Below are positions 1 through 23,113 of a stretch of 64,000 nucleotides of DNA, in pieces. The stretch is from Escherichia phage arall. The position numbers and the translations under genes are program-made. A model generated the notes under the pieces. The model was not told the DNA's origin. It saw only the letters and a list, made by a program, of their open reading frames with translations, and searched no databases. The stretch is from the sequence record MN850584.1; one strand, written 5' to 3'. Each line of letters opens with the position of its first letter. Within the stretch, counting starts at the first letter, position 1.

Positions 1-784
1 AGTACGGCAGCACAGGAGAACAGATAATAGGAAGACCCTTTGCACCTGCTTCCAAAATCTTCAAATTGCTTTTACAGTTGTTGAAGTCATTATCTACTAG
101 GGGAGCAATTGCAATACTGTGACCGTCATACACAGACATATACTCACCTAAATTTTTAATAGCTGGTTTATACTGTGCATTTGGAATTTTACGTTTTATT
201 TTAACCCACTCCGCAGTAGTTAGATACTGACTATTATTTCCAACAGGTGCAGAAGGATACACTTCATACCCTGCAATTGTCAATAGTGTATCATCAAATG
301 TATTAGCTACAAGAGATAAATCAGGCTCATGGCTTGCTCCTCCAGCCCAGATAATAGGTGTGTCAGAACTACGGTCTTTTGTCAAAGTAAATTGACCTTC
401 GTCGTAAGGTAGTGCGTTTCTAATAACGACAACATTACGATTTAAATGACGAATTTTGTAAGCTAGGTATTCTGTTGTTACAGTAACCACATCTGCTAAC
501 TTAATCATCTCTACAATAGTCTTTGAGTGATTAGTAAATACGCCAGCCATATAATGTTCAGGATTAAGCGAATAAAAATCATCTAAATCAACAATAATCT
601 TAACACCTTGTGCCTTCAGGCGTTTAACTTCGTCTGATCCACGAGAATACACTCTATTAAAAACTAAAACGTCTTTCTTAGGTTTAAACGTATTTCCAGC
701 AAATGGCATTACAATACGATGGTAATCACAACCACTGCCTAACTTATTATCACACTTAAGTACAGGAGTATTAGGATTTACCAT
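1..784 (-). CDS. Glycosyltransferase-like protein, N-terminal part (gene runs off window start)
   Basis: Open minus-strand frame from ATG at 784-782 to position 1, translated by eye; segment KILEAGAKGLPIICS resembles the GT-B family 1/4 EAxAxGxPVI motif. Not in ORF track because no stop lies in window. Confidence 0.4.
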   Translation of the reverse strand, partial: MVNPNTPVLKCDNKLGSGCDYHRIVMPFAGNTFKPKKDVLVFNRVYSRGSDEVKRLKAQGVKIIVDLDDFYSLNPEHYMAGVFTNHSKTIVEMIKLADVVTVTTEYLAYKIRHLNRNVVVIRNALPYDEGQFTLTKDRSSDTPIIWAGGASHEPDLSLVANTFDDTLLTIAGYEVYPSAPVGNNSQYLTTAEWVKIKRKIPNAQYKPAIKNLGEYMSVYDGHSIAIAPLVDNDFNNCKSNLKILEAGAKGLPIICSPVLPY

Positions 785-1457
785 ATTTTTGAGCCTCCTC
801 ATAAGAGATAAAAGTTTTACCATTGCGAAGATCCTCCAGTGATTGTTTATATTGTTCCCAGTTTACACCAATCCCCTGTTCTTTCTCTTCTTTTGACAGA
901 TTCGCAAAAGGTAAAGGATTATCTCCAAACACATCGTCAGGATGGATAAACGCCATAATTCGAATAGGACATGGTACACCGAGAATGCCTCGGTTCAAAC
1001 CTGCCAGTGGAACGCGCTGAATCCACTCTGCATCTTCATATCCATAACCGTGGGTGTATGAGCGGAAATAGCCAGCTTTCTCAATAACTGCACGGGAATA
1101 CATACCAAACTGGCACATACCTAGTTCCCAAATAACCACCTCCCCTTCAATACCTTTTACTTTATCTTTAAAGTATTCAGGCATACCAAAGAAATCCCAA
1201 CCATTTTCCTTTGCCTGTTTTACAAAATATGTTTCCCACCCTGGAACAACAGGATAGCAATCATCATCAAAAATAAACCAGTAGTCATACCCTTCATCAT
1301 AAAACTTTTTCATCAGTTCATTACGGGCATATGCAACACCTTTTCGTTCACGATCATACTGTACAACAAAAGTAGCATTAGGATCAGTCACAAGATAATC
1401 TTTAAGAGGACGCTTACCTACAGTAATAACACCAACACCAATTTTTGTATTTTCCAA
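771..1457 (-). CDS. GT-A fold glycosyltransferase-like protein
   Basis: 228 aa ORF; FIFDDDC (DxD) and YGYEDAEW motifs typical of GT-A enzymes; TTG start preceded by AAGGAG. Confidence 0.55.
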   Translation of the reverse strand: MENTKIGVGVITVGKRPLKDYLVTDPNATFVVQYDRERKGVAYARNELMKKFYDEGYDYWFIFDDDCYPVVPGWETYFVKQAKENGWDFFGMPEYFKDKVKGIEGEVVIWELGMCQFGMYSRAVIEKAGYFRSYTHGYGYEDAEWIQRVPLAGLNRGILGVPCPIRIMAFIHPDDVFGDNPLPFANLSKEEKEQGIGVNWEQYKQSLEDLRNGKTFISYEEAQKYGKS

Positions 1458-1466
1458 AATAACTCC

Positions 1467-2030
1467 TTAAATAATTTTATTCATGTCTTGACAATGTAAA
1501 AGGTGTGAAACAGCTTTTCTAGGATCATCATTACCTAAACGGTAGGTGTGAAATAAATATAACCCACGTAATAAACCTAGCCTTTTGTTGTTAGCATGTA
1601 ATGCTTTAGAGAAAATTATATCAAACTGTATTGATCTTTCCTCAAAAGGAATTTCATTCCACAGACTCTTACGAAAGAGAAGAAAGAATCCTGCTAAGAT
1701 AGCATCTGTAGGTACTTCCTCTATTGAGTTTCCCCATTCTAGATGTGCTCTTTTTGCAATCTCAATGTGGTGTAATATATTCGGATCTTCACTTCTTTCA
1801 TTATTAAATAATTGATATGTTGATCCCAATCTGTTACAAGATGCACCAAGAACATCAAAATCAGGATTTGAACGGACAATTGATTCCAGCCAAGCAGGTT
1901 GTTCTGGAAGAAGAAACATTGTATCAATGTCTCTTAGGCAAATCCAACTATCTTCTGGTAAGACACTTATTGTGTCATTGATACCTTTTCCAATATCTCC
2001 AGAAAGATAGGGAGTTATGTGAAATATCAT
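1467..2030 (-). CDS. Putative glycosyltransferase (GT-A-like)
   Basis: 187 aa ORF with CLRDID DxD-like motif; third consecutive glycosyltransferase-like gene. Confidence 0.4.
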   Translation of the reverse strand: MIFHITPYLSGDIGKGINDTISVLPEDSWICLRDIDTMFLLPEQPAWLESIVRSNPDFDVLGASCNRLGSTYQLFNNERSEDPNILHHIEIAKRAHLEWGNSIEEVPTDAILAGFFLLFRKSLWNEIPFEERSIQFDIIFSKALHANNKRLGLLRGLYLFHTYRLGNDDPRKAVSHLLHCQDMNKII

Positions 2031-2087
2031 ACTCCCTCCGTATTATTACTTTAGCATTTTTAGACTAAAAAGTCCAAATGGTTTTAC

Positions 2088-2282
2088 CTATTGATTACGT
2101 TTTGCGAGTTCCATTTGGATAGCTAAACTGTGATCTCGTGCTTCCATATACTCTTTATATGTTTCATTAAGATGATCACGACAAACATCACGCAGTTTAA
2201 TCAGTTTATCTGTAGGGATACCACTAAGATCATCCCAAGATTTTACAACTTCACCAGTATCATTGATCCCAATGGTTTTCAT
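2088..2282 (-). CDS. Hypothetical protein
   Basis: 64 aa ORF co-oriented in minus-strand block. Confidence 0.4.
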   Translation of the reverse strand: MKTIGINDTGEVVKSWDDLSGIPTDKLIKLRDVCRDHLNETYKEYMEARDHSLAIQMELAKRNQ

Positions 2283-2490
2283 CTACAACCTCCTTAATTG
2301 CTACAGCACAGTTTTTGCAGATACACTGCCCTTTACCTTTAGAAATCTGGATGTAAGGTTCATTTTCATTTTCGCCCTTACGTGAGTCATATATTACAGT
2401 ATTGAAGCACACAACGCAAATATTTTTTAAGATTGTATACTTATCAACTTTCTTTTTTGTTTTAAAGTTAACTTCAATAACATCAGCCAT
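2260..2490 (-). CDS. Small Cys-rich (zinc-ribbon-like) protein
   Basis: ATG at 2490 overlaps upstream stop (ATGA); CxxC...CxxC pattern (CVVC, CICKNC). Confidence 0.45.
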   Translation of the reverse strand: MADVIEVNFKTKKKVDKYTILKNICVVCFNTVIYDSRKGENENEPYIQISKGKGQCICKNCAVAIKEVVDENHWDQ

Positions 2491-2768
2491 CAGTGTAACA
2501 CTCCCAGTATGTTGTTTTGTGACATAACCATAGAACATTCAACATTATCGTGACTACGTGAAAAACGTTCCCAAACATCTTCATCGACTCGTAAAGCTAT
2601 ACAAGGATAGACGTTATCATTGATCATTTCAATTGAATAAACATCCACATTGTCTTCGTCTTCGATGAACATCATTGCAAACTGTTCTAAATGTTTCCTA
2701 ATGTAATGTACATCCTCTTCTGTAAGACCAATAACAAGATAACTTGCAACGATAACGCCATCTTTCAT
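2490..2768 (-). CDS. Hypothetical acidic protein
   Basis: 92 aa ORF in gene block. Confidence 0.5.
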   Translation of the reverse strand: MKDGVIVASYLVIGLTEEDVHYIRKHLEQFAMMFIEDEDNVDVYSIEMINDNVYPCIALRVDEDVWERFSRSHDNVECSMVMSQNNILGVLH

Positions 2769-2778
2769 CTATATCTCC

Positions 2779-3288
2779 TTAGCGATAGAATTGATGTTCT
2801 TTGTAGCGGTACACTAGAACCATATCTTTTTCCCAGTGTGCTCTTATTGTAGATTTTTTAAAGTATAATGCTCCTTTTGTAATATCTAATGCAATTCGTA
2901 ATTCTGGAAAATGGTTATCGAGATAAAGTAGACGTTCTGCTATAGCTTTAGCGTCTTTCCACTTATCGTGTTCCATAACGTTGAATGTCTTTGTGTAAGA
3001 GAATTGTCCTTTCTGAAACAAAACTTCTTTTATAGTATCAGGGAAATATGAATCTTTAGCCCTATTCAATACTACATTACCAACAGCAGACATACCGCGC
3101 TTTCCTTGATTACGACTTTCTGCATAGATTGCACAAGCTAATAGATTTTCTTTACTATCACGCTTTGTACACTTGTGAACTACTTTAGCAGTTTTTACGT
3201 TTGCAGCTTCGGCTTGCGCCACAACAGGTGTAAATGTAAAAGCAGTTAAGGATAGTAACGCAATTGCGACAAAGGTTTTTATTGACAA
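2779..3288 (-). CDS. Secreted SleB-like cell wall hydrolase
   Basis: N-terminal signal peptide (ALLSLTAFTFTPVVAQA); ACAIYAESRNQ...VGNVVLNRAKD...QKGQFS matches cell-wall hydrolase (Hydrolase_2/SleB) signature. Confidence 0.7.
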   Translation of the reverse strand: MSIKTFVAIALLSLTAFTFTPVVAQAEAANVKTAKVVHKCTKRDSKENLLACAIYAESRNQGKRGMSAVGNVVLNRAKDSYFPDTIKEVLFQKGQFSYTKTFNVMEHDKWKDAKAIAERLLYLDNHFPELRIALDITKGALYFKKSTIRAHWEKDMVLVYRYKEHQFYR

Positions 3289-3380
3289 ACTTGCCTCCTA
3301 TTTTGTTAAACGAACTTTTATTGTAACACAGAAGAGGCTATTTTGCAAGTGGAGGGGGACTATCCCCCTCTTACACTCTG

Positions 3381-3983
3381 TTAGATATTGTAAACCTTTG
3401 TATGAGTTACTACACCATCTTCTACAAAATCAATACGTTCTTGATCCGTGACTAGTGCAGACAACACTTTAAATTTAATTTTTACACGTTCAAAAGCTGG
3501 TTGACCATCTTTAAGATAATTATGTTCGGTTGTCACTGTCTTGTTTACAAAATCAACTTTTGCTTTACCGTTTTCGCGTAGGTGGAATGTTTTTCCTGCT
3601 TTATACACAATTTCAACATTACCTTCGAGAGTAATTCCTTCAAAAAGTTCACCCTCTTCTTCATTTTCTTCGCTTTTGAACAGACGACGAAACTCTTCCA
3701 TATCAAGATAAACAACATCTTCAGAATAACTATCAGTAAGGTATGTCTTACCATCCATTAACCCGAAATATTGCCAGATCGCAGAATAAACATCACTAGT
3801 TGATCCAAGGGTATCTCTGAGTTTAGTTCCACGGATTACTTCATAAACTTCAAAATTGAAACCAGACTGCAAAGCATCAAACAGCACATCACTAACTTCT
3901 AAAGCATAATCTTCATTGTTGTCAATATCTACAAGAAAATTGCCGCTACGAATAAGTTTTTGACCTTCTAAAGTAATACTCAT
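3381..3983 (-). CDS. Hypothetical protein
   Basis: 200 aa ORF in gene block. Confidence 0.55.
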   Translation of the reverse strand: MSITLEGQKLIRSGNFLVDIDNNEDYALEVSDVLFDALQSGFNFEVYEVIRGTKLRDTLGSTSDVYSAIWQYFGLMDGKTYLTDSYSEDVVYLDMEEFRRLFKSEENEEEGELFEGITLEGNVEIVYKAGKTFHLRENGKAKVDFVNKTVTTEHNYLKDGQPAFERVKIKFKVLSALVTDQERIDFVEDGVVTHTKVYNI

Positions 3984-4035
3984 TGTTTTCTCCTCTTCTA
4001 TTTAAAATATGCGCCCCGAAGGGCACTATGATTTA

Positions 4036-4632
4036 TTACTCGAACCAATCGTCGCCAGCGCCAAACGCTTTAACTACATCATAAATGTCAAGTCCAGCTT
4101 TACCTACACCATATGCTTTCAGTTTCCATTCACTATCTTCCCGCACCAGGGAGGCAACGTGGCAAATGGTATTACCTGCAAGTTCTGGAGCCAAGAAGTC
4201 AAAATCCAGCAGTTCAACGTTACGTTCATCATCGAAGATTTTAAGGAAACCTTCGGTAGCGTGACCAAGGCGTTTCTTACCCGTTTCGTCATCAATAGTA
4301 ATTACGAATGCAATTTCCTGTGCTTCAGCAGAGATATTATCCAGTGTAACATCAATCTGCTCCATTTGTCCTACACCGTCACGAACATCTTCACCTGCAA
4401 AAGTAGAACGTTCAGGGTCAAATTTCTGTGCGTAGCATACCAGGTGGCGAGGAGACAACAGTTCCGGCAGACCAGATGCATTGTGTCGGCAAATCAGAGC
4501 ACTAACATCCAGATCCAGTTTTTCGTTAGATTTCCAAGAGAATTCCAGACGAATGCGTTTCAGTGCTGGTGCAATCTTTTTCAGAGAAACTTTTTCGCTA
4601 GAACCTTTTTTCAGGGAAATTTTCTGAGTCAT
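4036..4632 (-). CDS. TerD-domain protein (tellurite resistance TerD/TerE/KlaB family)
   Basis: ISLKKG...VSLKK N-terminus, DLDVSA, AFVITIDD and SEWKLKAYGVGKAGL segments align by eye with E. coli TerD. Confidence 0.8.
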   Translation of the reverse strand: MTQKISLKKGSSEKVSLKKIAPALKRIRLEFSWKSNEKLDLDVSALICRHNASGLPELLSPRHLVCYAQKFDPERSTFAGEDVRDGVGQMEQIDVTLDNISAEAQEIAFVITIDDETGKKRLGHATEGFLKIFDDERNVELLDFDFLAPELAGNTICHVASLVREDSEWKLKAYGVGKAGLDIYDVVKAFGAGDDWFE

Positions 4633-4704
4633 AATTTATTATCTCCTTTGTTGTTAATTTACGTTATCTATTTTACTAATCTTTTCTACAAAGTCAAGCG
4701 TTTT

Positions 4705-5499
4705 TTACGCTTTTGCTCCGAATTTTTTAACCCACTCGCCAAACTCTTCGGATAGCAGTTTATCGTAAAGTTCTTCGTCAGACAAGGACAAATCTGCAAT
4801 ACCGATAAAGTCAACGTTATCGTATTCTTTTGCCAAGTCTTTCAGGAATTTAAAGTTTGCATTACCTACACCAACCATAAACCAGTAAACAGGAGTGTTG
4901 CGGTGTTTGTTCAGCAAACTACGTACTGCTGAAGTATCCATGTTCTCCCCGTCAGTTTGGAAGAAAATCATTGCAGGAGTACGATCAACTTGTGCATCAG
5001 TATCTACAACCTGTTCTACAACAGTACGTGTAACTTCTACAAGTTCTTTTTTACCAGTTAGTTTAGCAAGGAAACCCTTAGCCGGAACTTCTTCATACTC
5101 AACGACTTCGCGTGTAATATTTTTCATAGGTACACTACCGAAGTATGTATCATAGATCTCTTGCATTACTGGAGCATAAGCTGTACCACCATTGATGCAA
5201 ACGTTAGACATACAAGAGCCGACATAATCATCATATACATCAGCCGTAGCAGGAGGCAGTTCAAAAGAAGAACTATTGAAAGCCCACATGTCAATCTGTG
5301 CATTATCATCAAACTTCATACCAAACGGCAGCAGCTTACCTACAAAATCACTAACAGTGCCATCACGATACAGCTCACACATACTACCCGAAATATCTAA
5401 GGCGCTACCGACACGAAGAACAACATCGTTAATCTTTTTCTTACGCAGAGATACGGTAAGAGTTTCTTGACGTTTTTTAAGACTGATTTTATTGGACAT
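4705..5499 (-). CDS. vWA-domain protein (TerY/TerF-like)
   Basis: MIDAS-like LDISGSM motif; TerD-like ISLKK...VSLRKK leader; adjacent to TerD gene. Confidence 0.6.
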   Translation of the reverse strand: MSNKISLKKRQETLTVSLRKKKINDVVLRVGSALDISGSMCELYRDGTVSDFVGKLLPFGMKFDDNAQIDMWAFNSSSFELPPATADVYDDYVGSCMSNVCINGGTAYAPVMQEIYDTYFGSVPMKNITREVVEYEEVPAKGFLAKLTGKKELVEVTRTVVEQVVDTDAQVDRTPAMIFFQTDGENMDTSAVRSLLNKHRNTPVYWFMVGVGNANFKFLKDLAKEYDNVDFIGIADLSLSDEELYDKLLSEEFGEWVKKFGAKA

Positions 5500-5500
5500 A

Positions 5501-5770
5501 TTATTTCTCCTTTCTGAGTGTAATGTTAGTAACTTCTAAATCCACTTCTACCATTTCTGTATCATACGAAATACAGCTAAGTTGACCTCTTTGCGAACCG
5601 TTCAGACACATTGCTTGGTTTGTATTAACTTTAATAAACACTAAGTTTCTGAATGTATCTAAACCAGAATCTTGATAGGCAACATAATATACAAATGTAT
5701 CACCTGCGTCAAGTTCTCCAAAACATTTAGGTTCATCTGATTTGTCGTCTTTGATATTAAATTTAAGCAC
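5501..5770 (-). CDS. Hypothetical protein
   Basis: 89 aa ORF in block. Confidence 0.45.
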   Translation of the reverse strand: MLKFNIKDDKSDEPKCFGELDAGDTFVYYVAYQDSGLDTFRNLVFIKVNTNQAMCLNGSQRGQLSCISYDTEMVEVDLEVTNITLRKEK

Positions 5771-6326
5771 TGTCTTCTCCTTTACCTGCTCTCAAGCCTA
5801 AATAGAAAGCCTCTCTGGTGATCTTTTGCAACTCGTTTAAAGAGATAGTTACAACTAAATCATCTTCAATTTCTAGCTTTGAGTCTTCTTCTGTCTCAAT
5901 GCAAGTATTATGCACTTTGTGGTAAGGATTGTCAACACGTTTAAATTTATTATTTTCAGTGCTGAAGAAGCAATCTGGATCTTCTTCCCCATCACCCCAA
6001 CCCTGGTTAGGATCTTCTTCAGATCTTTCTGTTGGGATCTCGCCTGTAAAGTGCTCTTCTAATACCAGAGCAATCCCATCTCCAAGATCGGAAGAGAACA
6101 TCAAATTACAAACTTCTTCCCAAGGCATAGACCACTTAAATCTTTTACGATTGCCATGTTTATCTTCTTCGTTAGAGAAAACACTACCATAACTATCATA
6201 ATTCCCATACATCTCTTCGACAACCTTACCACCTTTCAAAAGAAATAGGTAGCAAGGAGAGCCATCGAAAGAGGTAGAAAGAGCAGCATTACCAGACTCT
6301 TTGCACAAGAAACTAAAACACCCCAT
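5763..6326 (-). CDS. Hypothetical acidic protein
   Basis: 187 aa ORF in block. Confidence 0.5.
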   Translation of the reverse strand: MGCFSFLCKESGNAALSTSFDGSPCYLFLLKGGKVVEEMYGNYDSYGSVFSNEEDKHGNRKRFKWSMPWEEVCNLMFSSDLGDGIALVLEEHFTGEIPTERSEEDPNQGWGDGEEDPDCFFSTENNKFKRVDNPYHKVHNTCIETEEDSKLEIEDDLVVTISLNELQKITREAFYLGLRAGKGEDSA

Positions 6327-6526
6327 TATACACCAGCCTTAAGATCAATTAAAGCCAAAGTTGTTTCAGAGTGTGTTTGCTCGTCTACAGGTGCAGTCAT
6401 ATGATAATACAAAAAATCTTCGGCATCATACCAATCTGATTCTTGACCTTGTTTCCAACCATCAATGAAAGCATCTTCCATAATGGTTTGCAATTCTTCA
6501 CGAGTTAAGTGAATATCTTTACTCAT
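6326..6526 (-). CDS. Hypothetical protein
   Basis: 66 aa ORF, start/stop overlap with neighbours. Confidence 0.4.
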   Translation of the reverse strand: MSKDIHLTREELQTIMEDAFIDGWKQGQESDWYDAEDFLYYHMTAPVDEQTHSETTLALIDLKAGV

Positions 6527-6759
6527 TACACATTCTCCTCTTTTACCAATTCCATCGTTGAATTGTCAAAACCATCTTTAGAAGAATAGGTATAGACAGA
6601 ACGTAGTTCTCGCAGGACAGTGAATACATTAGGATCATCTAACCAAGCATCCTGGAGGAGAACATAACGATCTTCATTGTCATACTGAACAGCAATCATA
6701 GAACCAGACAGTTTGTAAATTTTAATATTCATAATATATTTCTCCTTAAAGTAGACCAC
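6526..6759 (-). CDS. Hypothetical protein
   Basis: 77 aa ORF in block. Confidence 0.4.
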   Translation of the reverse strand: MVYFKEKYIMNIKIYKLSGSMIAVQYDNEDRYVLLQDAWLDDPNVFTVLRELRSVYTYSSKDGFDNSTMELVKEENV

Positions 6760-7849
6760 GTTTAACAGTTTGAATCATACCATCTTCAAGAGATTGCACT
6801 TCTTGAATGTAATCAATACGAGCAGCACGGGCTTCAGTGTTGATTCGGTTAGTTTCTTCCAACATTTTAACTAAGTTTTCTTGATCACGACGCAATGTTT
6901 CAATATCCAATACTTGACGATTAGCAAGTTGTGTAGCTTCAATCTGGTTTTGTGCAGCCAGATCACTACCCATTGCAATAGCAGCATTAAATTCATTCAG
7001 TACGTTGTTCTGTGTATCGGCTGCTTTCTTCTGGCGTAGACTTTCAATATACATAGAAAAGTTTGCAGAGTAAGCAGGAATAACATTATTCACAATATTA
7101 CGGGCTGATCGCATCAAACTTGCAGATACTTTCTGCATACTTTGTACACGTGGCCCCATCTGAACACATAGTAAGCGTAGGGCTTTCAGGTCTGCAATAC
7201 GAATTTCAAGCAGATCCATAGTATCACGAGTACGTTGACGCTCTTCTACCTCATTTTCAGGTAGTGTATTAAGGCGAATTTCTTCTTTTTCATAAGTAGC
7301 TGTTAGAAGCTCTATATCCCTGTTTAAGCTAAGGGCATATTTTGCAATAGCCTCTTCTAAACGTTGCAGATATCGTAAAGAATCTTCTTCTTTTTTCAAG
7401 TCTGTTTGGAGTGTCTTTACCAAACCTTCAATACGGTTATTGATGGTGTCAAATTCTCCAAACAAATCTTCTTTCATACCTAAAACTTTCTTAACTAGTT
7501 TACCTAAACCTTTAGATTGTTTAATAGAGTTAGGATCAAGTTGCTTTGCTTGCTTAATAAGTGCAGTTAAACGTTCACTCATTTCATCTCCCTGAGATGA
7601 ACGCTGGTGTTTAAGCACTTCAGCATTAAGGTTACGAAGAGTAAGTCCTGCATCAGCACCAACCTGTTCAATCTCTTCACGAGACATTGGAGGCAGCATT
7701 TGTACAGGGCGTGCAACAGCAGGGGCATATACAGGGCTTGCATCCATAGCACTTGGAGCAAACAAAGACTTACTTTTTTCTGTTGTTGCCGTGAATACAC
7801 TCATTTCAGACGGTTTGCTTTTTACGGCACTGATAAAAGGACTGGACAT
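6746..7849 (-). CDS. TelA/KlaA-like toxic-anion-resistance protein (tentative)
   Basis: 367 aa, strongly coiled-coil, size and context match TelA, which pairs with TerD-like KlaB in kilA-type operons; assignment is by context and composition. Confidence 0.4.
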   Translation of the reverse strand: MSSPFISAVKSKPSEMSVFTATTEKSKSLFAPSAMDASPVYAPAVARPVQMLPPMSREEIEQVGADAGLTLRNLNAEVLKHQRSSQGDEMSERLTALIKQAKQLDPNSIKQSKGLGKLVKKVLGMKEDLFGEFDTINNRIEGLVKTLQTDLKKEEDSLRYLQRLEEAIAKYALSLNRDIELLTATYEKEEIRLNTLPENEVEERQRTRDTMDLLEIRIADLKALRLLCVQMGPRVQSMQKVSASLMRSARNIVNNVIPAYSANFSMYIESLRQKKAADTQNNVLNEFNAAIAMGSDLAAQNQIEATQLANRQVLDIETLRRDQENLVKMLEETNRINTEARAARIDYIQEVQSLEDGMIQTVKRGLL

Positions 7850-7917
7850 TCAATTTCCTCCATATTCTTTAGTAGATGGTGATACCTCTGTACCACCATC
7901 ATAACACAAATTAAGTA

Positions 7918-8769
7918 TTAAACAAACATATCTAAATAATTTGTAGTAATAAATGCTCCATCTGCTTCCAGATTAACATAACCCGTGGTATTAGCAGTTA
8001 AGAAATCCAGATCGAAGGACTCTTTAACACCCCGTACCTCAACACGAGAGATATCGAATACAGGTAGTGTAACAGCCTCTTCGTGCAATACCGTACCTTT
8101 GTAGGTTGCCTTAATGATAAACTTGATATTACCTGTTCCAGCATCATATAAAACACTTTCAAACCCTTTGAGAGTATATTTATCACCAGAAGTGAAGTGC
8201 AAAGTTGCTTTGTTTACAGTACGTTTCTTACGAGGAGTTCCTTTCACACATTTATGATCACTACGTTTTTTGTATTTAGGAATGAATACAAACGATACAC
8301 TCTCAAGAAAGGTATCAACATCAAGGATTTTAATATCCTCTGTTGCAGCAAATTTTGAAGTCGTTGCATCAAAATGCTTTTCCCTGCGATCATACATAAA
8401 GATATCAAACCGATCTTCTAAATCAAACAAATTATGTATTTTAATTTCAGAATGCTTGCGCATTGCAGCAACCTTGAACTCTTCAAAACGTGGGTGTTCT
8501 ACAAGTTCTTCAAGTTTTACACCAAAGATAGTATATTGCTTCGAAGTCTTTTCTGGTGTTGGCATTACAGAAGCATAGTCCCCGATTGCGCTCTTAAAGC
8601 AAAATTGTTCTTGACCTGTATTTTTACCAACGAATTTACAGTATTCGTCATCGTGCATACTTTCCTTGGTAGTACCAACAAACTCAAAACCATCTTTATT
8701 CTTCTCAAGGATTTCTTGATTAAAGATCCAACCTTCCAGGCGATATACTTTACCAACTTCTAGTTTCAT
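7918..8769 (-). CDS. Hypothetical protein
   Basis: 283 aa ORF in block. Confidence 0.55.
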   Translation of the reverse strand: MKLEVGKVYRLEGWIFNQEILEKNKDGFEFVGTTKESMHDDEYCKFVGKNTGQEQFCFKSAIGDYASVMPTPEKTSKQYTIFGVKLEELVEHPRFEEFKVAAMRKHSEIKIHNLFDLEDRFDIFMYDRREKHFDATTSKFAATEDIKILDVDTFLESVSFVFIPKYKKRSDHKCVKGTPRKKRTVNKATLHFTSGDKYTLKGFESVLYDAGTGNIKFIIKATYKGTVLHEEAVTLPVFDISRVEVRGVKESFDLDFLTANTTGYVNLEADGAFITTNYLDMFV

Positions 8770-8804
8770 CTGTTTCTCCTTCTTATTTAATCTGTATTAA
8801 ATTA

Positions 8805-9395
8805 TTAACGACGACGTGAGCTACTAAAACTACGTTTCGACGAAGAATAACTTTTCGAAGACTTACTATAAGAGCTAATAGGGCTTGAGTAAGACTTACG
8901 AGCAGAGTAATCACTATTCACTTTTGTTGTTGACGGGCGTGAATACGTTTGTACACTTTGCTGCTTAATTGTGTTTTGTTTAGTGGTTGTATATGTATTT
9001 CCTTGTTTATCATAAAAACTATGCTTTTGTGTTGTATATGCTTTACTGTTAGTTGTAGGAGCAGCGTTGTTATTAATAATTGTTGTGCTGCTACCACCAT
9101 CTCTATAACCGCCACCGCCACTATTACCACTCAACATATGACCAAGAAGCATACCTGTAGCAAACTCACCTACACCAGACGAACCACTGCCGCCTCCTTG
9201 CACAACAACTGTTGAAGGTTGTGCAGGTGCTGCTTGAACAACTTGAGGTGCAGGCTGGTTTACATATTGTTCATCTACCATCTGATTTGGTGTTTGTTGG
9301 TAACGTTGATTTTGTACATTTTCAGAATCATCACAACCTACCAGCAATGCACTACCTAAAACAACTGCAACAATAAAAGATTTAATGTTTTTCAT
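8805..9395 (-). CDS. Lipoprotein with Gly/Ser/Tyr-rich low-complexity region
   Basis: ATG at 9395; signal peptide plus lipobox (LLVGC); glycine-zipper and S/T/Y-rich tail. Confidence 0.55.
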   Translation of the reverse strand: MKNIKSFIVAVVLGSALLVGCDDSENVQNQRYQQTPNQMVDEQYVNQPAPQVVQAAPAQPSTVVVQGGGSGSSGVGEFATGMLLGHMLSGNSGGGGYRDGGSSTTIINNNAAPTTNSKAYTTQKHSFYDKQGNTYTTTKQNTIKQQSVQTYSRPSTTKVNSDYSARKSYSSPISSYSKSSKSYSSSKRSFSSSRRR

Positions 9396-9588
9396 TTGTA
9401 ACCCTCTCATTTAAAGTCTCAACACAATTTTTAAAATCCCTAGAGAAACAATACATCTGTTCTCCGTTCCTGTTGATAGTAATTGTATGGTTATCAATAT
9501 ATGTTGTCAAGATAAAAATCAAACAAAACAACCCTAGAGCAAAACAAATATTTTCAAACAGAATCCAAAGAACACGTAAAACCACCAT
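9382..9588 (-). CDS. Small putative membrane protein
   Basis: 68 aa ORF with hydrophobic N-terminus; overlaps start of downstream gene. Confidence 0.3.
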   Translation of the reverse strand: MVVLRVLWILFENICFALGLFCLIFILTTYIDNHTITINRNGEQMYCFSRDFKNCVETLNERVTNEKH

Positions 9589-9628
9589 CAGATCACCTCA
9601 ACAAAGCCCCCCGAAGGGGCTTAATGAA

Positions 9629-10606
9629 TTAAGCAACAGTCTGGTCTTCTTTTTCAGGGAAGATTAAACTTGCAAGAACACCCAGCCCAAGAGTACCTAA
9701 CACAATATACATACTGATCGTCGGGTCAATGTGTGCTGGCAGGAAACTCATTTTTGCGTGCAGAGTTTCTGCAAACGGATGATACATCAGTTTTACACCA
9801 ACAAATACCAGGACTACGATAACTGCTTTCTCCAGATGAACCAAATACTTCAGTGCAACACTAAGAACAAAGAACAGAGCACGTAAACCTAAGATTGCAC
9901 AGAGCATCGAAGAGAACACCAGCAGAGGTTCTTGTGTCACTGCAATTACTGCTGGAACAGAGTCTACTGCAAAGATTACGTCAACCATTTCCATTACAAA
10001 CACACAAACCAGAGCCGGAGTTGCTACACGAACACCATTTTTTATTGTGAAGAACTTCTCACCATTCATCTGATCAGATACAGGGAACAGCTTACGAACA
10101 ATGCGAGTAGCCCAGTGTTTAGAGTAATCAACTTCTGCATCATCATCCCCAGCGAATACCATTTTAGCCGCACAGAAAAGGATGACAGCACCGAAGAAGA
10201 TATTAACATACCAGCCCAAACTCAACAAGTAAGTACCTACTGCTACAAACACACCTCGGAAGACAATCGCACCTGCAATACCCCAAAGTAGAATTTTGTG
10301 CTGCAAGTGTGTGCTTTTAATACCAAAACTTGCGAAGACTGCCACAAATACTACTAAGTTATCTACAGAAAGAGATTTCTCCAACACATACCCACTCAAG
10401 AACAAGCTCGCAAAATCAGCACCGTGTTGGAAGTATACAAAACCATAGTAGGCTAATGATACCCCAATCCAGAAAATTGACCAGCCAATTGCAGATTTAA
10501 ATGAAATTTCTTTGTTTTCTCTGTGTCCAAAGAAGTCAATACAAATCGACAAGACTAAAATACCCACTAAAACAACCACATCAATAATTGGGAAACCCAG
10601 TTGCAT
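9629..10606 (-). CDS. TerC-family integral membrane protein
   Basis: Multi-pass membrane protein with LSVDNLVVF TerC signature. Confidence 0.8.
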   Translation of the reverse strand: MQLGFPIIDVVVLVGILVLSICIDFFGHRENKEISFKSAIGWSIFWIGVSLAYYGFVYFQHGADFASLFLSGYVLEKSLSVDNLVVFVAVFASFGIKSTHLQHKILLWGIAGAIVFRGVFVAVGTYLLSLGWYVNIFFGAVILFCAAKMVFAGDDDAEVDYSKHWATRIVRKLFPVSDQMNGEKFFTIKNGVRVATPALVCVFVMEMVDVIFAVDSVPAVIAVTQEPLLVFSSMLCAILGLRALFFVLSVALKYLVHLEKAVIVVLVFVGVKLMYHPFAETLHAKMSFLPAHIDPTISMYIVLGTLGLGVLASLIFPEKEDQTVA

Positions 10607-10683
10607 TCTTTTCTCCTCTTTAATGCGGAGGACAATCCTCCGCTCTATGTCTTATACTATAAACTGTTTTTAAAGAAAGTCAA

Positions 10684-10932
10684 CTAGTTCAGTTCTGTAA
10701 TTTTAAGTTTATCTTCTTTGTTAATGATAGGGAAAGCTACAGCATCACCTACGTCATCAATAAAGCAAATAGCAAGACCACCTTCCACTTTGCTAATCTG
10801 ACCATTAAAGGCGTGATACGGGGCAGGAACTTGATCTCCATCTTCAAGGAGAATAGCCTCGTAAACCTTGCCGATAGTACAATCACGAGTGTTTCTAAAT
10901 TTTTCAAGCACTTCAACATTTACTTTACGCAT
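10684..10932 (-). CDS. Hypothetical protein
   Basis: 82 aa ORF in block. Confidence 0.45.
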   Translation of the reverse strand: MRKVNVEVLEKFRNTRDCTIGKVYEAILLEDGDQVPAPYHAFNGQISKVEGGLAICFIDDVGDAVAFPIINKEDKLKITELN

Positions 10933-10946
10933 ATAAAAATCCTCTC

Positions 10947-11153: not shown

Positions 11154-11162
11154 ACTTTCTCC

Positions 11163-13751: not shown

Positions 13752-13785
13752 ATAAATAAAGGAGGCTTTCGCCTCCTTTTATCAC

Positions 13786-14966: not shown

Positions 14967-15437
14967 TTAGTCAGATTCCCAAATGTTGTCTTTCTTAACC
15001 CACATTCGTTGATTATCTGAACCTCTATAACGTTTCGTTGTTGGTTGATTCATATCATACTTACCATCTATCACTATGTCAACCAGTTTTTTAATTTTCT
15101 CTGGAATTTCTTCAAAAAGATATCCTGTATATAAGACAATATCTTTTTTGTTTCCAAAACAATCTCTTACCTTCTCAAGAACATACTCTACAGTGTCAAT
15201 GTTCTCTTTGTCAAGAGGTTCACCACCTAAAACTGTTAATCCTTTAATGAAAGGTCGAGATAAATCTTCCAAGATAAGATCTAATGTTTCAGCAGTGAAC
15301 TCTTGTCCGTAGTTATACGACCAGGCTTTCTGGTTAAAGCAGCCACGGCAACCGTGGCTACAACCGCTCACCCACAAAGAGCATCTTACACCGTCACCGT
15401 TGAGCATGTCAACAGGTTCATATCCGGCGTAATTCAA
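14967..15437 (-). CDS. nrdG: Anaerobic ribonucleotide reductase activating protein (radical SAM)
   Basis: CSHGCRGC cysteine motif, about 156 aa, immediately downstream of nrdD. Confidence 0.85.
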   Translation of the reverse strand: MNYAGYEPVDMLNGDGVRCSLWVSGCSHGCRGCFNQKAWSYNYGQEFTAETLDLILEDLSRPFIKGLTVLGGEPLDKENIDTVEYVLEKVRDCFGNKKDIVLYTGYLFEEIPEKIKKLVDIVIDGKYDMNQPTTKRYRGSDNQRMWVKKDNIWESD

Positions 15438-16375
15438 AAGTGTTTCTCCCTTTCTAGTACCTCTTGCATTTTACCTTTATTATAAGGGCGAGAGTTAGGG
15501 GCAGAAAGGTATCCTGACACTCTTCTGATCACAGATATGGATTCTTCTTCGTGATTACCGCAACTTGGACACTCGAAGCCTTTAGCTGTTGCCTTAAATT
15601 CACCATGAAAACCACATTTGAAACACTGATCTACAGGTTGGTTCACGCCAAAATAAGGGATTTTGTTGTAGGCATAATCTACAAGAGTTTCCAGTGCTTG
15701 CAAGTTATTTTTAAGGTTCGGTGTTTCTACATAACCTATGTTCCCACCATTACTAATTTGTGCAAAACCTTCCTCATAATCCCACTTTTGGAACGGGGTA
15801 GTGTGCATCCATACAGGTTGATGGAAAGAGTTTGTCAAGTAGTCACGATCAATAGAGCCAGGATAGCGATCATTTAACGCTTTGGCAAATTTATAGCACA
15901 AGGATTCTGCTGGTGTTCCATACAAACTAAAAGCTAAACCAGAACGTTCTTTAAATGTGCAACAGATATCCTTCATATATTGAAGGATGTTTTTACCCAT
16001 TGCTTTTGGATTGGTGTTACCTGGGTATAAAATCTCCATAGCTTCTGCTAAACCTACATAACCGATACTAATAGAGGCATAACCACCTTCGAATAGCTTA
16101 CCAATCTCTTCATTAGCTTCTAGTCGAGCTAAAGCCCCTTCCATAAACAATGTAGGGTTTTGAGATGCTTTGGTATGTCTAATACGGTTAACACGTAGCA
16201 TATGTGCCTTATACGCCATCTCCATATGTTGTTCCAACAGTTCAGTAAATAAGATGCCCTTTTCACGGGACTCTGCTGCAATGATAGGTAAGTTTAAAGA
16301 AACTACGCCTAAGTTGAAACGACCATCATATTTTTCACCTTGCTCTGTTGCATAGTATGACAAGAAACTTCTACA
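15434..16375 (-). CDS. nrdD: Anaerobic ribonucleoside-triphosphate reductase, exon 2
   Basis: Begins CRSFL..., contains C-terminal zinc-ribbon cysteines (CFKCG...CPSCG) and ends with the RVSGYL glycyl-radical-region motif; upstream part of the track ORF is intron sequence. Confidence 0.85.
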   Translation of the reverse strand, partial: CRSFLSYYATEQGEKYDGRFNLGVVSLNLPIIAAESREKGILFTELLEQHMEMAYKAHMLRVNRIRHTKASQNPTLFMEGALARLEANEEIGKLFEGGYASISIGYVGLAEAMEILYPGNTNPKAMGKNILQYMKDICCTFKERSGLAFSLYGTPAESLCYKFAKALNDRYPGSIDRDYLTNSFHQPVWMHTTPFQKWDYEEGFAQISNGGNIGYVETPNLKNNLQALETLVDYAYNKIPYFGVNQPVDQCFKCGFHGEFKATAKGFECPSCGNHEEESISVIRRVSGYLSAPNSRPYNKGKMQEVLEREKHF

Positions 16376-17144
16376 CATTATGTTCAAAGTGGCTCGCAAG
16401 GCCACTCCCGCACCATTACGTGCTGCTGCATGTCACCATGCAGATCAGACTATATCTTCATGCTTAAAGCATGTCTACCATTTGGGGTGTCATAGGCTTA
16501 CACCCTACGCTGCTACATTCATCACAGCTAGTCGTTAGGCATTTCGTAACAGAACTCATAATCATAATTATTTGGTGCTCCGCGCTTTAAGATTGCAGAT
16601 ATTCTTTTTCTGTCCAACCCTAAAGCGTCAGCACAACATCTCAGACTTTTAAAGTAAAAAACTTCACCAGTAGCCTTATGAGTAGCTTTTACACTGTGAC
16701 ACCTTGTGTAGAAAGCATAACAGTTATTATCGTAACCCTCTTGCGTGTTGTCTGGACAAGATCCCCACTCAAGATTGTATACACTGTTGTCTTTCCTATT
16801 GTCACCTTTATGCTTCACATAAGGTAAATTGTCTGGATTGGGTAAAAACGCTTCAGCTACAAGTCTGTGCACCCGAAAGCAAACAGTTTTCTTGTTTTTA
16901 CGTATTCTGACAAGTTGGTATCCTGTGTTTATTTCTTCCCACGAGCGAAGGATTCTTTCATCCTTATACCTGGTACAATAAACATTTCCAAGCTCGTCAA
17001 TTTCATACCCTTCAAAATCACGAATTTGTTTTCTCATACCAGTACCCCCTTCTTCTGTGTTGGGAGTTCTGTTACGTTTAGCACGGGATTGTCTCGTTGA
17101 GAGTTCCCCCGTTTAGGCAGATTTTACATGAGCAGTTATAGTTT
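16376..17144 (-). mobile_element. Group I intron interrupting nrdD, carrying an HNH endonuclease ORF
   Basis: Exon 1 frame stops 2 codons after ...VTSMG; exon 2 resumes CRSFL; intron has the group I core recalled from T4 td-type introns (CTAAACGGGG...GACAATCCCGTGCTAAA), exon ends in U, intron ends in G. Confidence 0.75.
16528..17037 (-). CDS. HNH homing endonuclease (intron-encoded)
   Basis: VHRLVAEAF...VKHKGDNRKDNSVYNLEW matches the HNH_3 motif; lies inside the nrdD intron. Confidence 0.8.
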   Translation of the reverse strand: MRKQIRDFEGYEIDELGNVYCTRYKDERILRSWEEINTGYQLVRIRKNKKTVCFRVHRLVAEAFLPNPDNLPYVKHKGDNRKDNSVYNLEWGSCPDNTQEGYDNNCYAFYTRCHSVKATHKATGEVFYFKSLRCCADALGLDRKRISAILKRGAPNNYDYEFCYEMPND

Positions 17145-18002
17145 ACCCATGCTTGTGACGCGACCATCTGAAGATCCTGTAACTTCTTTGTTTAAAGGTA
17201 CAGAGATAAAATCAGGATAAATGCGTTCAGCACAACACTCCATTGCCAGTTGCTTCAAATCATAGTTTGGATCGCCAGCTTTCATGTTAACACCATCTTC
17301 CAAGAAGAAGATAACTTTAGGAAACACAGGAGTTACCCTATCTTTTCCTAATCCTTGTTTGTGCACCATTAGGTAGTTTTTAGTGATCATTCTACCAAAA
17401 GCAGAGGTATCCAAACCTAAACTAATTGTTATAAAAGGTGACTGACCATTTACACTCATTAGAGTGTTCACCTGGTAGATTAAAGTTTGCATTGCATCAT
17501 AGACCTGTTTATCTACCATACGCATAGCAATATCATAATCGCCAACATCGGCATATATTTTATTAAAACTTGCTTTAACGTATTGACTAAGCCCAGTATC
17601 AACATGTGCACAAGTTTGTCCACCATATTGGCTAGAAGCTACTGCTTGAATAATTTGAGTTAGGACAGTAGTCGCTACACCGATAGATTTTGGTTTTTCA
17701 ATATGTGCATTACCAATACGGAAACCGTTCTCAAGCATATCTTGGTAATTTACCAGGCAACAATTAGTTAAAGGTGAGAGTAAATAATCTAAATCGTGAA
17801 TGTGACCATACCCACTTTTATGCCATTCTGCCAGATCTTCCGGTAAAATATGGGTCATTGCCATGTGCTTGCTTAGGATACCTGCTAGTAAGTCTCGGTG
17901 AGTATTAACAATCATTGCAGGTTTGTTTGCATTTTCACGAGTAAATTCTTCGGATGTTTGTTCGAGGAATCCGATTACATCCTCATATAGTTTTTGGGTC
18001 AT
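17145..18002 (-). CDS. nrdD: Anaerobic ribonucleoside-triphosphate reductase, exon 1
   Basis: 286 aa N-terminal NrdD portion ending ...EVTGSSDGRVTSMG; exon1+exon2 about 600 aa, typical NrdD size. Confidence 0.85.
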
Positions 18003-23112: not shown

Positions 23113-23113
23113 T

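What the first reader, a model, noticed from the sequence alone, without database searches (positions are those of the whole stretch)
1..2030. Three consecutive glycosyltransferase-like genes
A GT-B-like protein (partial), a GT-A protein with DDD and YGYEDAEW motifs, and a third DxD-containing protein sit in a row. A C5-cytosine methyltransferase elsewhere argues against T-even-style hydroxymethylcytosine glucosylation, so the targets may be another DNA modification, virion proteins or host surface polysaccharide.
Basis: partly seen in the sequence, partly recalled or inferred. Interest (0 to 1): 0.45.

Follow-up and report, generated by a model that had tools for sequence, protein, structure and literature searches.

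The report
Phage glycosyltransferase cassette, probably glycosylating capsid
Three adjacent sugar-transferase genes of a phi92-like E. coli phage belong to a gene cassette that in many other phages sits beside the capsid gene and tracks with capsid proteins ending in Thr-Thr, so it most likely puts sugars on the virus particle rather than on its DNA.

Summary
On the minus strand lie ORF3 (2030..1467, 187 aa), ORF2 (1457..771, 228 aa) and ORF1 (784..<1, first 261 of 324 aa). AlphaFold models of ORF3 and ORF2 match only GT-A glycosyltransferases. ORF1 belongs to a GT4-like GT-B family. The window is a phi92-like phage (Justusliebigvirus), where these genes are already annotated as glycosyltransferases. 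A fourth, paralogous GT-B gene lies just beyond the window edge, and rmlABCD (dTDP-L-rhamnose synthesis) lies elsewhere in the genome.

New here: the three families form a mobile cassette. Outside the large myophages it usually sits in the head module, directly after the major capsid gene or between terminase and portal. Across three capsid subfamilies, capsid proteins ending in Thr-Thr co-occur with these genes (17 with, 0 without), while 54 of 58 non-TT homologues lack them. Putative tail-tube proteins there also end in -TT. In the window's lineage the capsid protein ends -LTTA and the decoration protein -TS.

Best explanation, inferred and not shown: O-glycosylation of virion proteins at C-terminal Thr/Ser. 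DNA glycosylation, as speculated in the literature, is disfavoured: these phages are restriction-sensitive, and no hydroxymethylase or TET was found.

The parts
1467..2030 (-). ORF3, 187 aa: minimal GT-A glycosyltransferase (phrog_14179) and first gene of the cassette. It is the candidate priming protein O-glycosyltransferase.
1923..1931 (-). DxD motif of ORF3 (D34-I-D36, within LRDIDTMF)
   Evidence: D34 and D36 are invariant in 29 homologues.
771..1457 (-). ORF2, 228 aa, TTG start: GT-A glycosyltransferase (phrog_2456), probably an inverting enzyme that extends the glycan.
1260..1268 (-). DDD motif of ORF2 (D64-D66), the predicted metal and nucleotide-sugar binding site
   Evidence: Invariant in 18 homologues; sequence read directly.
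1023..1046 (-). YGYEDAEW motif of ORF2 (residues 138-145). E141-D142 is the predicted catalytic-base region, as in GT2/GT7-type GT-A enzymes.
   Evidence: Y138, G139, E141 and D142 are invariant. A weak Glyco_transf_7C match covers residues 128-155.
1..784 (-). ORF1, first 261 of 324 aa (cut by the window edge): GT4-like GT-B glycosyltransferase (phrog_7162). Its paralogue (41% identity) follows immediately outside the window.
   Evidence: PHROG E 4.6e-119. Its own Pfam Glyco_trans_1_4 and Glyco_trans_1_2 matches fall below cut-off. Many homologues and the paralogue carry PF13524, PF13692 or PF13439; the paralogue scores 27 bits against a cut-off of 25. The full length and the paralogue were read from phages ALITA and PaulScherrer.

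Best explanation
The three genes, plus a fourth paralogous GT-B gene just beyond the window edge, are a phage glycosyltransferase cassette encoding soluble cytoplasmic enzymes. I propose that these enzymes build a short O-linked glycan on abundant virion proteins at C-terminal Thr/Ser residues during late infection.

The proposed order is this. The small GT-A enzyme ORF3 primes the protein hydroxyl. ORF2 (GT-A) and the one or two GT-B enzymes then extend the glycan. At least one step probably uses dTDP-L-rhamnose made by the phage's own RmlABCD.

In this phage the candidate acceptors are the major capsid protein (ends ...VVKLTTA), the head decoration protein (...VVFTS) and possibly the tail sheath (...SSTVSS). 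The result would be a sugar coat on the particle, analogous to the glycosylated capsid and tail-tube C-termini of mycobacteriophages.

Shown: the glycosyltransferase folds, the conservation and mobility of the cassette, its position in head modules, and its statistical link to capsid proteins ending in -TT. Inferred: the acceptor, the order of action, the sugars and the biological benefit.

For: Cassette. The three families co-occur in several fixed orders in 54 locus groups from unrelated phages and prophages: O3-O2-GTB-GTB, O3-O2-GTB, O2-GTB-O3, and O3 with a distant GT-A. Among the best 145 new representatives returned for ORF3, 52 are longer than 300 aa, and a few of these carry a recognisable ORF2-like domain fused to an ORF3-like domain, e.g. 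P0278 and P0237.

Context. The most recurrent neighbour families are portal (19 groups), HK97-type major capsid protein (16), prohead protease (14) and TerL (11). In at least 21 groups the genes lie inside or at the edge of the head module: 15 directly after the capsid gene on the same strand, 4 between TerL and portal, and 2 just upstream of the terminase genes. The neighbour family 'u188' that follows is a head-tail connector.

Acceptor signature. Of 16 capsid-protein groups next to the cassette, 11 end in -TT. In three capsid subfamilies with cassette-less controls, the deduplicated counts are TT with GT 17, TT without GT 0, non-TT with GT 4 and non-TT without GT 54. Fisher p is 2e-13, and the association is significant within each subfamily. 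The nearest cassette-less homologues end in -TP, -AP or -PSV. Other capsid sequences not recovered in the PF05065 BLAST cluster show the same ending: a Pseudomonas prophage Gp13-like capsid protein ends ...SSSTT and a Serratia prophage protease-capsid fusion ends ...ANPTT. The ORFs in the tail-tube position of cassette-bearing siphophages also end in -TT, namely ...TSEPTT...GAPTT...GGPTT and ...WTTT. In L012 that ORF carries Pfam Phage_tail_3.

Window lineage. All cassette-bearing contigs, including a clade with only 56% capsid identity, keep capsid ...LTTA and decoration protein ...V(F/V)TS. Relatives at 37-43% identity in which no cassette was detected end ...STGTFA...STGKFTA or ...ATLKGD. 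In cassette-less Vequintavirus JohannBauhin the capsid, decoration and sheath proteins end -GGE, -GEE and -MTE.

Protein properties. None has a transmembrane segment, and three of the four proteins are acidic: ORF3 pI 5.6, ORF2 5.1, paralogue 5.4, ORF1 8.2.

Sugar supply. rmlBACD are in the same genome, and NDP-hexose 4,6-dehydratase genes sit inside the cassette in other lineages.
Against: There is no direct evidence that phi92-like virions carry glycans. In the large myophages the cassette sits next to primase-helicase and DNA polymerase, not next to the head genes.

Klebsiella phage 05F01 has the cassette but its capsid protein ends ...KLSDANP; only its decoration protein keeps -TS. In the window phage the TT is followed by Ala rather than being terminal.

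The TT statistics are not corrected for phylogeny, and the controls are the best 80 hits of pattern-based scans. In the window lineage, cassette absence was judged only by failure of those scans, not by whole-contig searches.

ORF2 has a weak sub-threshold match to the TET-associated DNA glycosyltransferase family. Loci with only ORF2 and GT-B have no capsid protein ending in -TT, so those two enzymes may serve other acceptors.
Confidence: 0.55

Rival explanations
1. DNA hypermodification. The enzymes would glycosylate, for example rhamnosylate, hydroxymethylated pyrimidines in phage DNA. The precursor would be made either before replication, as in T-even phages, or after replication from 5mC through a TET-type dioxygenase. 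The purpose would be protection against nucleases.
For: This is the literature's speculation for phi92- and phAPEC8-like phages (PMC7552041; PMC10844046). In the large myophages the cassette abuts primase-helicase and DNA polymerase. ORF2 has weak matches to Pfam TAGT (E 6.7e-5) and to the PHROG family of the T2/T6 beta-glucosyl-HMC alpha-glucosyltransferase (E 5e-5). ORF2 also shares the R...DDD...ED layout described for phage DNA GT-A enzymes. A C5-methyltransferase is present.
Confidence: 0.1
2. Remodelling of a host envelope glycan. The enzymes would add sugars to Und-PP-linked LPS, O-antigen, ECA or capsule intermediates. This could block superinfection or stop progeny from adsorbing to debris; in prophages it could act as serotype conversion.
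Against: There are no membrane-spanning or Gtr-type components and all the proteins are soluble. The cassette is shared by phages of E. coli, Klebsiella, Serratia and Pseudomonas and by many environmental phage contigs of unknown host, and the named genera share no common surface glycan acceptor. This explanation does not account for the link to capsid and tail-tube proteins ending in -TT, or for the position inside late head operons.
Confidence: 0.15
3. Glycosylation of another cytoplasmic target. This could be a host protein as part of host take-over (toxin-like glucosylation, or EarP-like rhamnosylation), an RNA, or a small molecule such as the nucleoside-like product predicted for the neighbouring Ter-type gene cluster.
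For: The enzymes are soluble and are encoded in the early/middle region of the genome. They lie about 1.4 kb downstream of a cluster encoding TerD, vWA-TerF, TelA, TerC, PRTase, HAD and Macro proteins, running from 3.4 to 15 kb. The function is untested.
Against: The Ter-type genes do not travel with the cassette outside the large myophages. No EarP or toxin-type family match was found. This explanation does not account for the capsid association.
Confidence: 0.08

Closest known systems
Mycobacteriophage virion glycosylation (Freeman et al. 2023, Cell Host Microbe 31:1216), known to me only through its description in PMC12619734
   Same: [quoted passage not shown] Those are the two protein classes whose C-termini carry the -TT signature next to this cassette.
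   Different: The hosts here are Gram-negative. tblastn with ORF3 found no Mycobacterium phage records, so the enzymes appear unrelated at sequence level. The putative acceptor is a bare C-terminal Thr-Thr, or -TTA and -TS in this phage. I do not know the mycobacteriophage acceptor sequence. No glycan has been demonstrated here. The original paper was not available to read.
Chlorovirus PBCV-1 capsid protein (Vp54) glycosylation by virus-encoded cytosolic glycosyltransferases such as A064R
   Different: That is a eukaryotic giant virus with atypical N-linked glycans and no detectable sequence relationship. Here the predicted linkage is O-linked at the C-terminus.
Phage DNA glycosyltransferases: T4 alpha/beta-GT, the T2/T6 gentiobiosyl transferase, and TET-associated GTs (TAGT, PF20691; Pyle et al., bioRxiv 10.1101/2023.12.21.572611)
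   Same: These are phage-encoded, and some are GT-A enzymes with R...DDD...ED motifs and TarP as a structural neighbour. ORF2 gives weak sub-threshold hits to TAGT and to phrog_842.
   Different: The Pfam threshold is not met. No hydroxymethylase or TET partner was found and there is no clustering with the methyltransferase. The phages are restriction-sensitive.
Prophage serotype-conversion and teichoic-acid glycosyltransferases (Gtr systems, TarP)
   Different: There are no GtrA- or GtrC-type membrane proteins, and the cassette is embedded in late head operons and also occurs in strictly lytic phages.
STIV A197, a minimal viral GT-A glycosyltransferase (PDB 2c0n)
   Different: It comes from an archaeal virus, shares only 16% identity, and has no shared gene context.

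Membership tests
GT-A fold nucleotide-sugar glycosyltransferases (ORF2, ORF3) | Single Rossmann-like alpha/beta/alpha domain that superposes on solved GT-A enzymes | tested here: met
GT-A fold nucleotide-sugar glycosyltransferases (ORF2, ORF3) | Conserved DxD (metal and diphosphate binding) motif | tested here: met
   ORF2 D64-D65-D66 and ORF3 D34 and D36 are invariant across homologues.
GT-A fold nucleotide-sugar glycosyltransferases (ORF2, ORF3) | Transfer of a sugar from a nucleotide sugar to an acceptor | not testable with these tools
   This needs an enzyme assay.
GT-B fold, GT4-like glycosyltransferases (ORF1 and its paralogue) | Match to the Glyco_trans_1 / Glyco_transf_4 profile families above threshold | tested here: inconclusive
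   ORF1 itself scores 18 bits against a cut-off of 27. Its paralogue scores 27 against 25 for PF13524. Many ORF1 homologues carry PF13524, PF13692, PF13439, PF13579 or PF00534. A profile search against PDB sequences gave only a marginal hit to MshA, E 0.36.
TET-associated glycosyltransferases (TAGT, PF20691) and the methyltransferase-5mYOX-GT DNA hypermodification clusters | Profile match above the gathering score | tested here: not met
   ORF2 scores 23.3 bits against a cut-off of 27.5, and only residues 16-75 align.
TET-associated glycosyltransferases (TAGT, PF20691) and the methyltransferase-5mYOX-GT DNA hypermodification clusters | Adjacent C5-methyltransferase and TET/JBP dioxygenase | tested here: not met
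   The methyltransferase lies 58 kb away at 59937-60926. No TET_JBP hit was found in 20 ORFs scanned, including the neighbours of the methyltransferase and of the cassette. Not every ORF of the genome was scanned.
T-even type hmC DNA glucosylation | ThyA-family dCMP (or dUMP) hydroxymethylase that supplies the acceptor base | tested here: not met
   The only annotated thymidylate synthase in the genome is ThyX-like (TIGR02170, 35 bits, itself below that model's cut-off of 87.9) with no ThyA-family match.
T-even type hmC DNA glucosylation | DNA resistant to restriction enzymes | not testable with these tools
   Published phenotyping reports that phi92-like phages are exceptionally susceptible to restriction-modification systems (PMC8594841).
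Virion glycosylation systems of the mycobacteriophage type | Phage-encoded glycosyltransferases genetically linked to the capsid and tail-tube subunits that carry the acceptor at their C-terminus | tested here: met
   At cassette-family level the genes sit in head modules and co-occur with capsid proteins ending in -TT (17/0 versus 4/54) and with putative tail-tube proteins ending in -TT. For the window phage itself the support is only suggestive: capsid -LTTA and decoration -TS, with 05F01 as an exception.
Virion glycosylation systems of the mycobacteriophage type | Glycans detected on virion proteins | not testable with these tools
   This needs mass spectrometry or glycostaining of virions.
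Gtr-type serotype-converting systems | Membrane proteins: GtrA flippase, GtrB bactoprenol glucosyltransferase, GtrC | tested here: not met
   No hydrophobic segment is present (maximum 19-residue Kyte-Doolittle mean 1.21 or less), and there is no such family hit.

The most novel reading that the evidence does not exclude
The ORF3/ORF2/GT-B cassette would be a widespread, so far unrecognised system by which phages of Gram-negative bacteria O-glycosylate the extreme C-terminal Thr-Thr of their major capsid and tail-tube proteins. The ORF3 family, with about 1200 clusters at 50% identity and no Pfam model, would be a new protein O-glycosyltransferase that reads a C-terminal -TT tag. phi92 and the BASEL phages Bas60-62 would then be rhamnose-coated E. 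coli phages in which this can be tested genetically.
Probability: 0.45. Interest if true: 0.75.

Novelty: new variant of a known kind. Interest (0 to 1): 0.6.

Why it matters
The genes themselves are ordinary and are already annotated in GenBank. Their purpose is not known. The only published idea is rhamnosylated DNA, which conflicts with the restriction sensitivity of these phages.

The comparative result gives a concrete and cheap test: mass spectrometry of the C-terminal peptides of the capsid, decoration and sheath proteins in phi92 or Bas60, with and without the cassette.

If the prediction holds, virion glycosylation would extend from mycobacteriophages to many phages of Gram-negative bacteria, including broad-host-range coliphages considered for therapy. 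A glycan coat there could affect immunogenicity, clearance, stability and adhesion to mucus. It would also define a minimal acceptor tag (C-terminal Thr-Thr) and a small enzyme set that might be used to glycosylate phage particles or other proteins on purpose.

Tried and rejected
- Sequence and profile searches against PDB sequences gave nothing significant for any of the three proteins. The hits were an AI-designed TIM barrel, MtrB, and MshA at E 0.36. NCBIfam gave no hits.
- The promoter and terminator scan of 1-3400 found 14 promoter-like sites against 13.5 expected and no terminators. It therefore gives no operon information beyond the tight gene spacing.
- The genome-contig scan with the ORF2 alignment returned only two loci because the search pattern was too narrow.
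- An alignment of eleven divergent capsid proteins was too diverse to search with. I used one closer subset and two single capsid proteins instead.
- The T-even route was considered and rejected: ThyX-like synthase only, and restriction-sensitive phages. The TET route was also rejected: no TET_JBP hit, distant methyltransferase, sub-threshold TAGT match.
- An EarP-like arginine rhamnosyltransferase was considered for the GT-B, but no such Pfam or NCBIfam match exists.
- A functional link to the adjacent Ter-type cluster was considered and set aside, because those genes do not accompany the cassette elsewhere.
- The 64-aa ORF at 2088-2282, labelled 'glycosyltransferase' in phage ALITA, has no family match and is too small. 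I treat that label as an annotation error.
- The primary papers on phi92 (PMC3457257) and on mycobacteriophage glycosylation (PMC10527164) are not held.
- Literature searches found no report of this cassette or of glycosylated capsids in Gram-negative phages in the held library. That is absence in the library, not proof of absence.
Full report
**What is there.** The window is a phi92-like E. coli myophage (Justusliebigvirus, Stephanstirmvirinae). Bases 1-6000 are 98-99% identical to phages Paula, ALITA, PaulScherrer (BASEL Bas60), alia and phi92. The finding's genes are all on the minus strand:
- ORF3 is 2030..1467, 187 aa.
- ORF2 is 1457..771, 228 aa, with a TTG start behind an AAGGAG ribosome-binding site.
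- ORF1 is 784..<1. The window holds 261 of the 324 residues seen in relatives.

The genes are packed tightly, with a 9-nt gap and a 14-nt overlap. No terminator-like site lies between them, and promoter-like sites are no more frequent than chance. In complete relatives the row continues with a fourth gene, a 311-314-aa paralogue of ORF1 at 41% identity. Then come an 89-aa ORF, primase-helicase, an endonuclease and DNA polymerase. GenBank records already call these genes glycosyltransferases or 'putative disaccharide synthase'.

**Are they glycosyltransferases?** Yes.
- All three match PHROG families annotated as glycosyltransferase at E 5e-113 to 5e-119 for ORF3 and ORF1 and 1e-78 for ORF2.
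- Pfam is weak. ORF3 has no hit. ORF2 has sub-threshold TAGT and Glyco_transf_7C matches. ORF1 has sub-threshold Glyco_trans_1_4 and Glyco_trans_1_2 matches.
- NCBIfam and PDB sequence or profile searches are empty.
- AlphaFold2 models built from family alignments are confident: ORF3 pLDDT 93.5 and ORF2 pLDDT 87.
ORF2 has D64-D66 and Y138, G139, E141 and D142. ORF3 has D34 and D36, plus an invariant N66, R67, H88, E131, D137, H161, Y163, R164 and H176.
- The ORF1 family is a GT4-like GT-B. The paralogue passes Pfam's Glyco_trans_1_2 threshold, and many homologues carry PF13524, PF13692 or PF13439.
- None of the proteins has a hydrophobic segment. The pI values are 5.6 for ORF3, 5.1 for ORF2, 8.2 for ORF1 and 5.4 for the paralogue.

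**What the literature says.** The phi92- and phAPEC8-like phages carry a complete dTDP-L-rhamnose pathway, at bas60_0210-0213 in PaulScherrer, about 7 kb beyond the far (64-kb) end of the window. Olsen et al. speculated that rhamnose glycosylates hydroxymethylated nucleotides (PMC7552041), and others repeat 'rhamnose modification' (PMC10844046). Maffei et al. found these phages 'exceptionally susceptible' to restriction-modification systems 'despite a putative dTDP glycosylation machinery' (PMC8594841). No experiment on these genes turned up in the held library.

**The DNA-target idea tested.**
- The genome's annotated thymidylate synthase is ThyX-like, not a ThyA-type enzyme that could be a hydroxymethylase.
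- Twenty ORFs, including the neighbours of the cassette and of the Dcm-like methyltransferase (59937-60926), gave no TET/JBP domain.
- The methyltransferase is 58 kb from the cassette, whereas methyltransferase-TET-GT pathways are normally clustered.
- ORF2's TAGT match is below Pfam's cut-off and covers only the nucleotide-binding part of the protein.
- Together with the restriction sensitivity, this makes genome-wide DNA glycosylation unlikely. A rare, site-specific modification is not excluded.

**The cassette is mobile.** Homologues of the three proteins occur together elsewhere in the order ORF3-like, ORF2-like, GT-B:
- In a 135-kb phage contig, with an NDP-hexose 4,6-dehydratase inserted and followed by primase-helicase and PolA.
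- In a Pseudomonas alliivorans prophage, directly after the Gp13-like major capsid gene.
- In a Serratia sp. M24T3 prophage, between the lysis genes and terS.

Identities are 34-50%.

I then collected 96 loci from IMG/VR and other sources, falling into 54 groups at less than 80% identity, and searched them with HMMs of the three families. The families co-occur in several fixed arrangements: O3-O2-GTB-GTB, O3-GTB-GTB, O3-O2-GTB, O2-GTB-O3, O2-GTB, and O3 with a distant GT-A of about 450 aa.

The ORF3 family is large, with 1218 clusters at 50% identity. Of the best 145 new representatives, 52 are longer than 300 aa, mostly with an extra N-terminal region. In a few of these that region is recognisably ORF2-like.

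**Where the cassette sits.** Clustering of all neighbouring ORFs, followed by Pfam annotation, showed the most recurrent neighbours:

| Neighbour family | Locus groups |
|---|---|
| Portal | 19 |
| HK97-type major capsid protein | 16 |
| Prohead protease | 14 |
| TerL | 11 |
| Methyltransf_24 | 10 |
| Head-tail connector ('u188') | 10 |
| NDP-sugar 4,6-dehydratase | 6 |
| Mu F-like | 6 |

In at least 21 groups the glycosyltransferase genes lie inside or at the edge of the head module. In 15 they directly follow the capsid gene on the same strand, before the connector. In 4 they lie between TerL and portal. In 2 they lie just upstream of the terminase genes. Only in the large myophages (7 groups) is the cassette beside the replication genes.

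**A candidate acceptor signature.** Of the 16 capsid-protein groups encoded next to the cassette, 11 end in Thr-Thr. The others end in -AT, -LT, -VS, -GS or -AS.

To get controls I retrieved homologues of three of these capsid subfamilies from IMG/VR. I scored each for the C-terminus and for cassette genes, and counted absence only where at least 5.5 kb of flank was available on both sides. The deduplicated counts are:

| Capsid C-terminus | With GT genes | Without GT genes |
|---|---|---|
| Ends in -TT | 17 | 0 |
| Other ending | 4 | 54 |

- Fisher p is 2e-13. Within the three subfamilies it is 6e-6, 3e-4 and 3.5e-3.
- Of the four non-TT loci with GT genes, one ends -AT and has the full cassette. 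The other three have weak ORF2-like hits about 8 kb away.
- The closest cassette-less homologues differ mainly at the tip, for example ...PFAAPTT against ...EFAAPTP.
- Other capsid sequences not recovered in that BLAST cluster show the same ending. The Pseudomonas prophage Gp13-like protein ends ...SSSTT, and the Serratia protease-capsid fusion ends ...ANPTT.
- The ORFs in the tail-tube position of cassette-bearing siphophages also end in -TT...TSEPTT...GAPTT...GGPTT and ...WTTT. In L012 that ORF carries Pfam Phage_tail_3.
- Loci with only ORF2 and GT-B have no -TT capsid protein, and ORF3 is present in most loci that combine TT with GT genes. ORF3 is therefore the family tied to the tag.
- Caveats: the test is not phylogenetically corrected, and the controls are the best hits of pattern scans. 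The association does recur in at least eight separate lineages.

**The window's own lineage.**
- PaulScherrer and phAPEC8 capsid proteins end ...VVKLTTA, their decoration proteins ...VVFTS and the sheath ...SSTVSS.
- All cassette-bearing contigs, including a clade with only 56% capsid identity, keep ...LTTA and ...V(F/V)TS. Relatives at 37-43% identity in which no cassette was detected end ...STGTFA...STGKFTA or ...ATLKGD.
- In cassette-less Vequintavirus JohannBauhin the three proteins end -GGE, -GEE and -MTE.
- One exception weakens this. Klebsiella phage 05F01 has O3-O2-GTB, but its capsid protein ends ...KLSDANP; only its decoration protein keeps -TS.

**Interpretation.** The best-supported reading is a virion-protein O-glycosylation cassette. 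ORF3 would prime a C-terminal Thr/Ser, ORF2 and the GT-B enzymes would extend the glycan, and phage-made dTDP-L-rhamnose would be one donor. NDP-hexose 4,6-dehydratase genes inside the cassette in other lineages suggest that 6-deoxyhexoses are a recurring component.

This parallels the reported glycosylation of capsid and tail-tube C-termini in mycobacteriophages (described in PMC12619734) and capsid glycosylation in chloroviruses. The enzymes, the tag and the hosts differ.

Everything beyond the folds, the context and the correlation is inference. I give this explanation 0.55 for this phage. The rivals are host envelope glycan remodelling at 0.15, DNA modification at 0.10 and another cytoplasmic target at 0.08.

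**Verdict.** The genes themselves are already annotated and ordinary. The comparative evidence turns an open question, namely why these coliphages carry four glycosyltransferases and a rhamnose pathway, into a sharp and cheap experiment.

Noticed in passing
window 15434-18002 (-): The anaerobic ribonucleotide reductase gene nrdD is split into an N-terminal half (18002..17136) and a C-terminal half (16405..15434). Between them lie a 169-aa ORF with an I-HmuI NUMOD-like domain (17037..16528) and a group-I-intron-like match (16533..16426; RF00028, 39.3 bits, below the gathering score of 50; E 7.5e-8). Phages ALITA and PaulScherrer have an uninterrupted nrdD, so this looks like a mobile intron with a homing endonuclease that is specific to this isolate.
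   Followed up: partly
window 3381-14946 (-): A Ter-type 'stress response' gene cluster sits in a lytic phage: TerD (4036-4632), vWA-TerF-like (4705-5499), TelA (6746-7849), TerC (9629-10606), Macro (11163-11996), ComF-like PRTase (11872-12729), HAD hydrolase (12722-13396) and an AAA ATPase (13786-14946). Its function in phage infection is unknown.
   Followed up: partly
window 33361-33912 (+): This 183-aa protein has a strong NADAR domain match (PF08719, E 2.5e-36). NADAR domains are linked to reversal of ADP-ribosylation, so it is a possible counter-defence gene.
   Followed up: no
window 59937-60926 (-) and 57793-58605 (-): A Dcm-like C5-cytosine methyltransferase (PF00145, 150 bits) lies two genes from a gene annotated in relatives as a SIR2/sirtuin family protein. 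No TET/JBP domain was found in the five surrounding ORFs.
   Followed up: partly
window 20338-23151 (-): This 937-aa ORF corresponds to the UvrD/Rep helicase that is annotated as intein-containing in PaulScherrer. The DNA polymerase just outside the window also carries an intein in PaulScherrer but not in ALITA.
   Followed up: no
window 2088-2282 (-): This 64-aa ORF directly upstream of the cassette is labelled 'glycosyltransferase' in phage ALITA but has no family match and is far too small. It is probably an annotation carry-over. It is conserved only in the large myophages.
   Followed up: partly
GenBank MG065645, MG065650, MG065635 ('Campylobacter phage' A145, B15, C12): These records match Stephanstirmvirinae or Vequintavirus coliphages at the same identity as bona fide coliphages of those groups: A145 matches ORF3 at 99.5%, B15 at 66.3% (the Phapecoctavirus level), and C12 matches the capsid protein at the Vequintavirus level. 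The host labels are probably wrong, or the preparations were contaminated.
   Followed up: no
L007 and L008 (metagenomic phage contigs), about 9-20 kb: Distant ORF3 homologues sit in large phage-borne sugar clusters. These encode UDP-galactopyranose mutase, GT2, a polysaccharide deacetylase, two Methyltransf_24 proteins, a DegT aminotransferase, an NDP-sugar dehydratase, GT-D-like and TOD1/MUCI70-like proteins, and a protein with a faint (sub-threshold) Stealth_CR2 match. In L007 the cluster lies between terminase and portal. This suggests much more elaborate virion glycans in some phages.
   Followed up: partly
L013 (Burkholderia dolosa contig), 3025-8440: A 411-aa homologue of the GT-B, without the two GT-A partners, lies next to an intimin/invasin-like inverse autotransporter and a 571-aa protein. 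This may be a bacterial use of the same enzyme on an adhesin.
   Followed up: no
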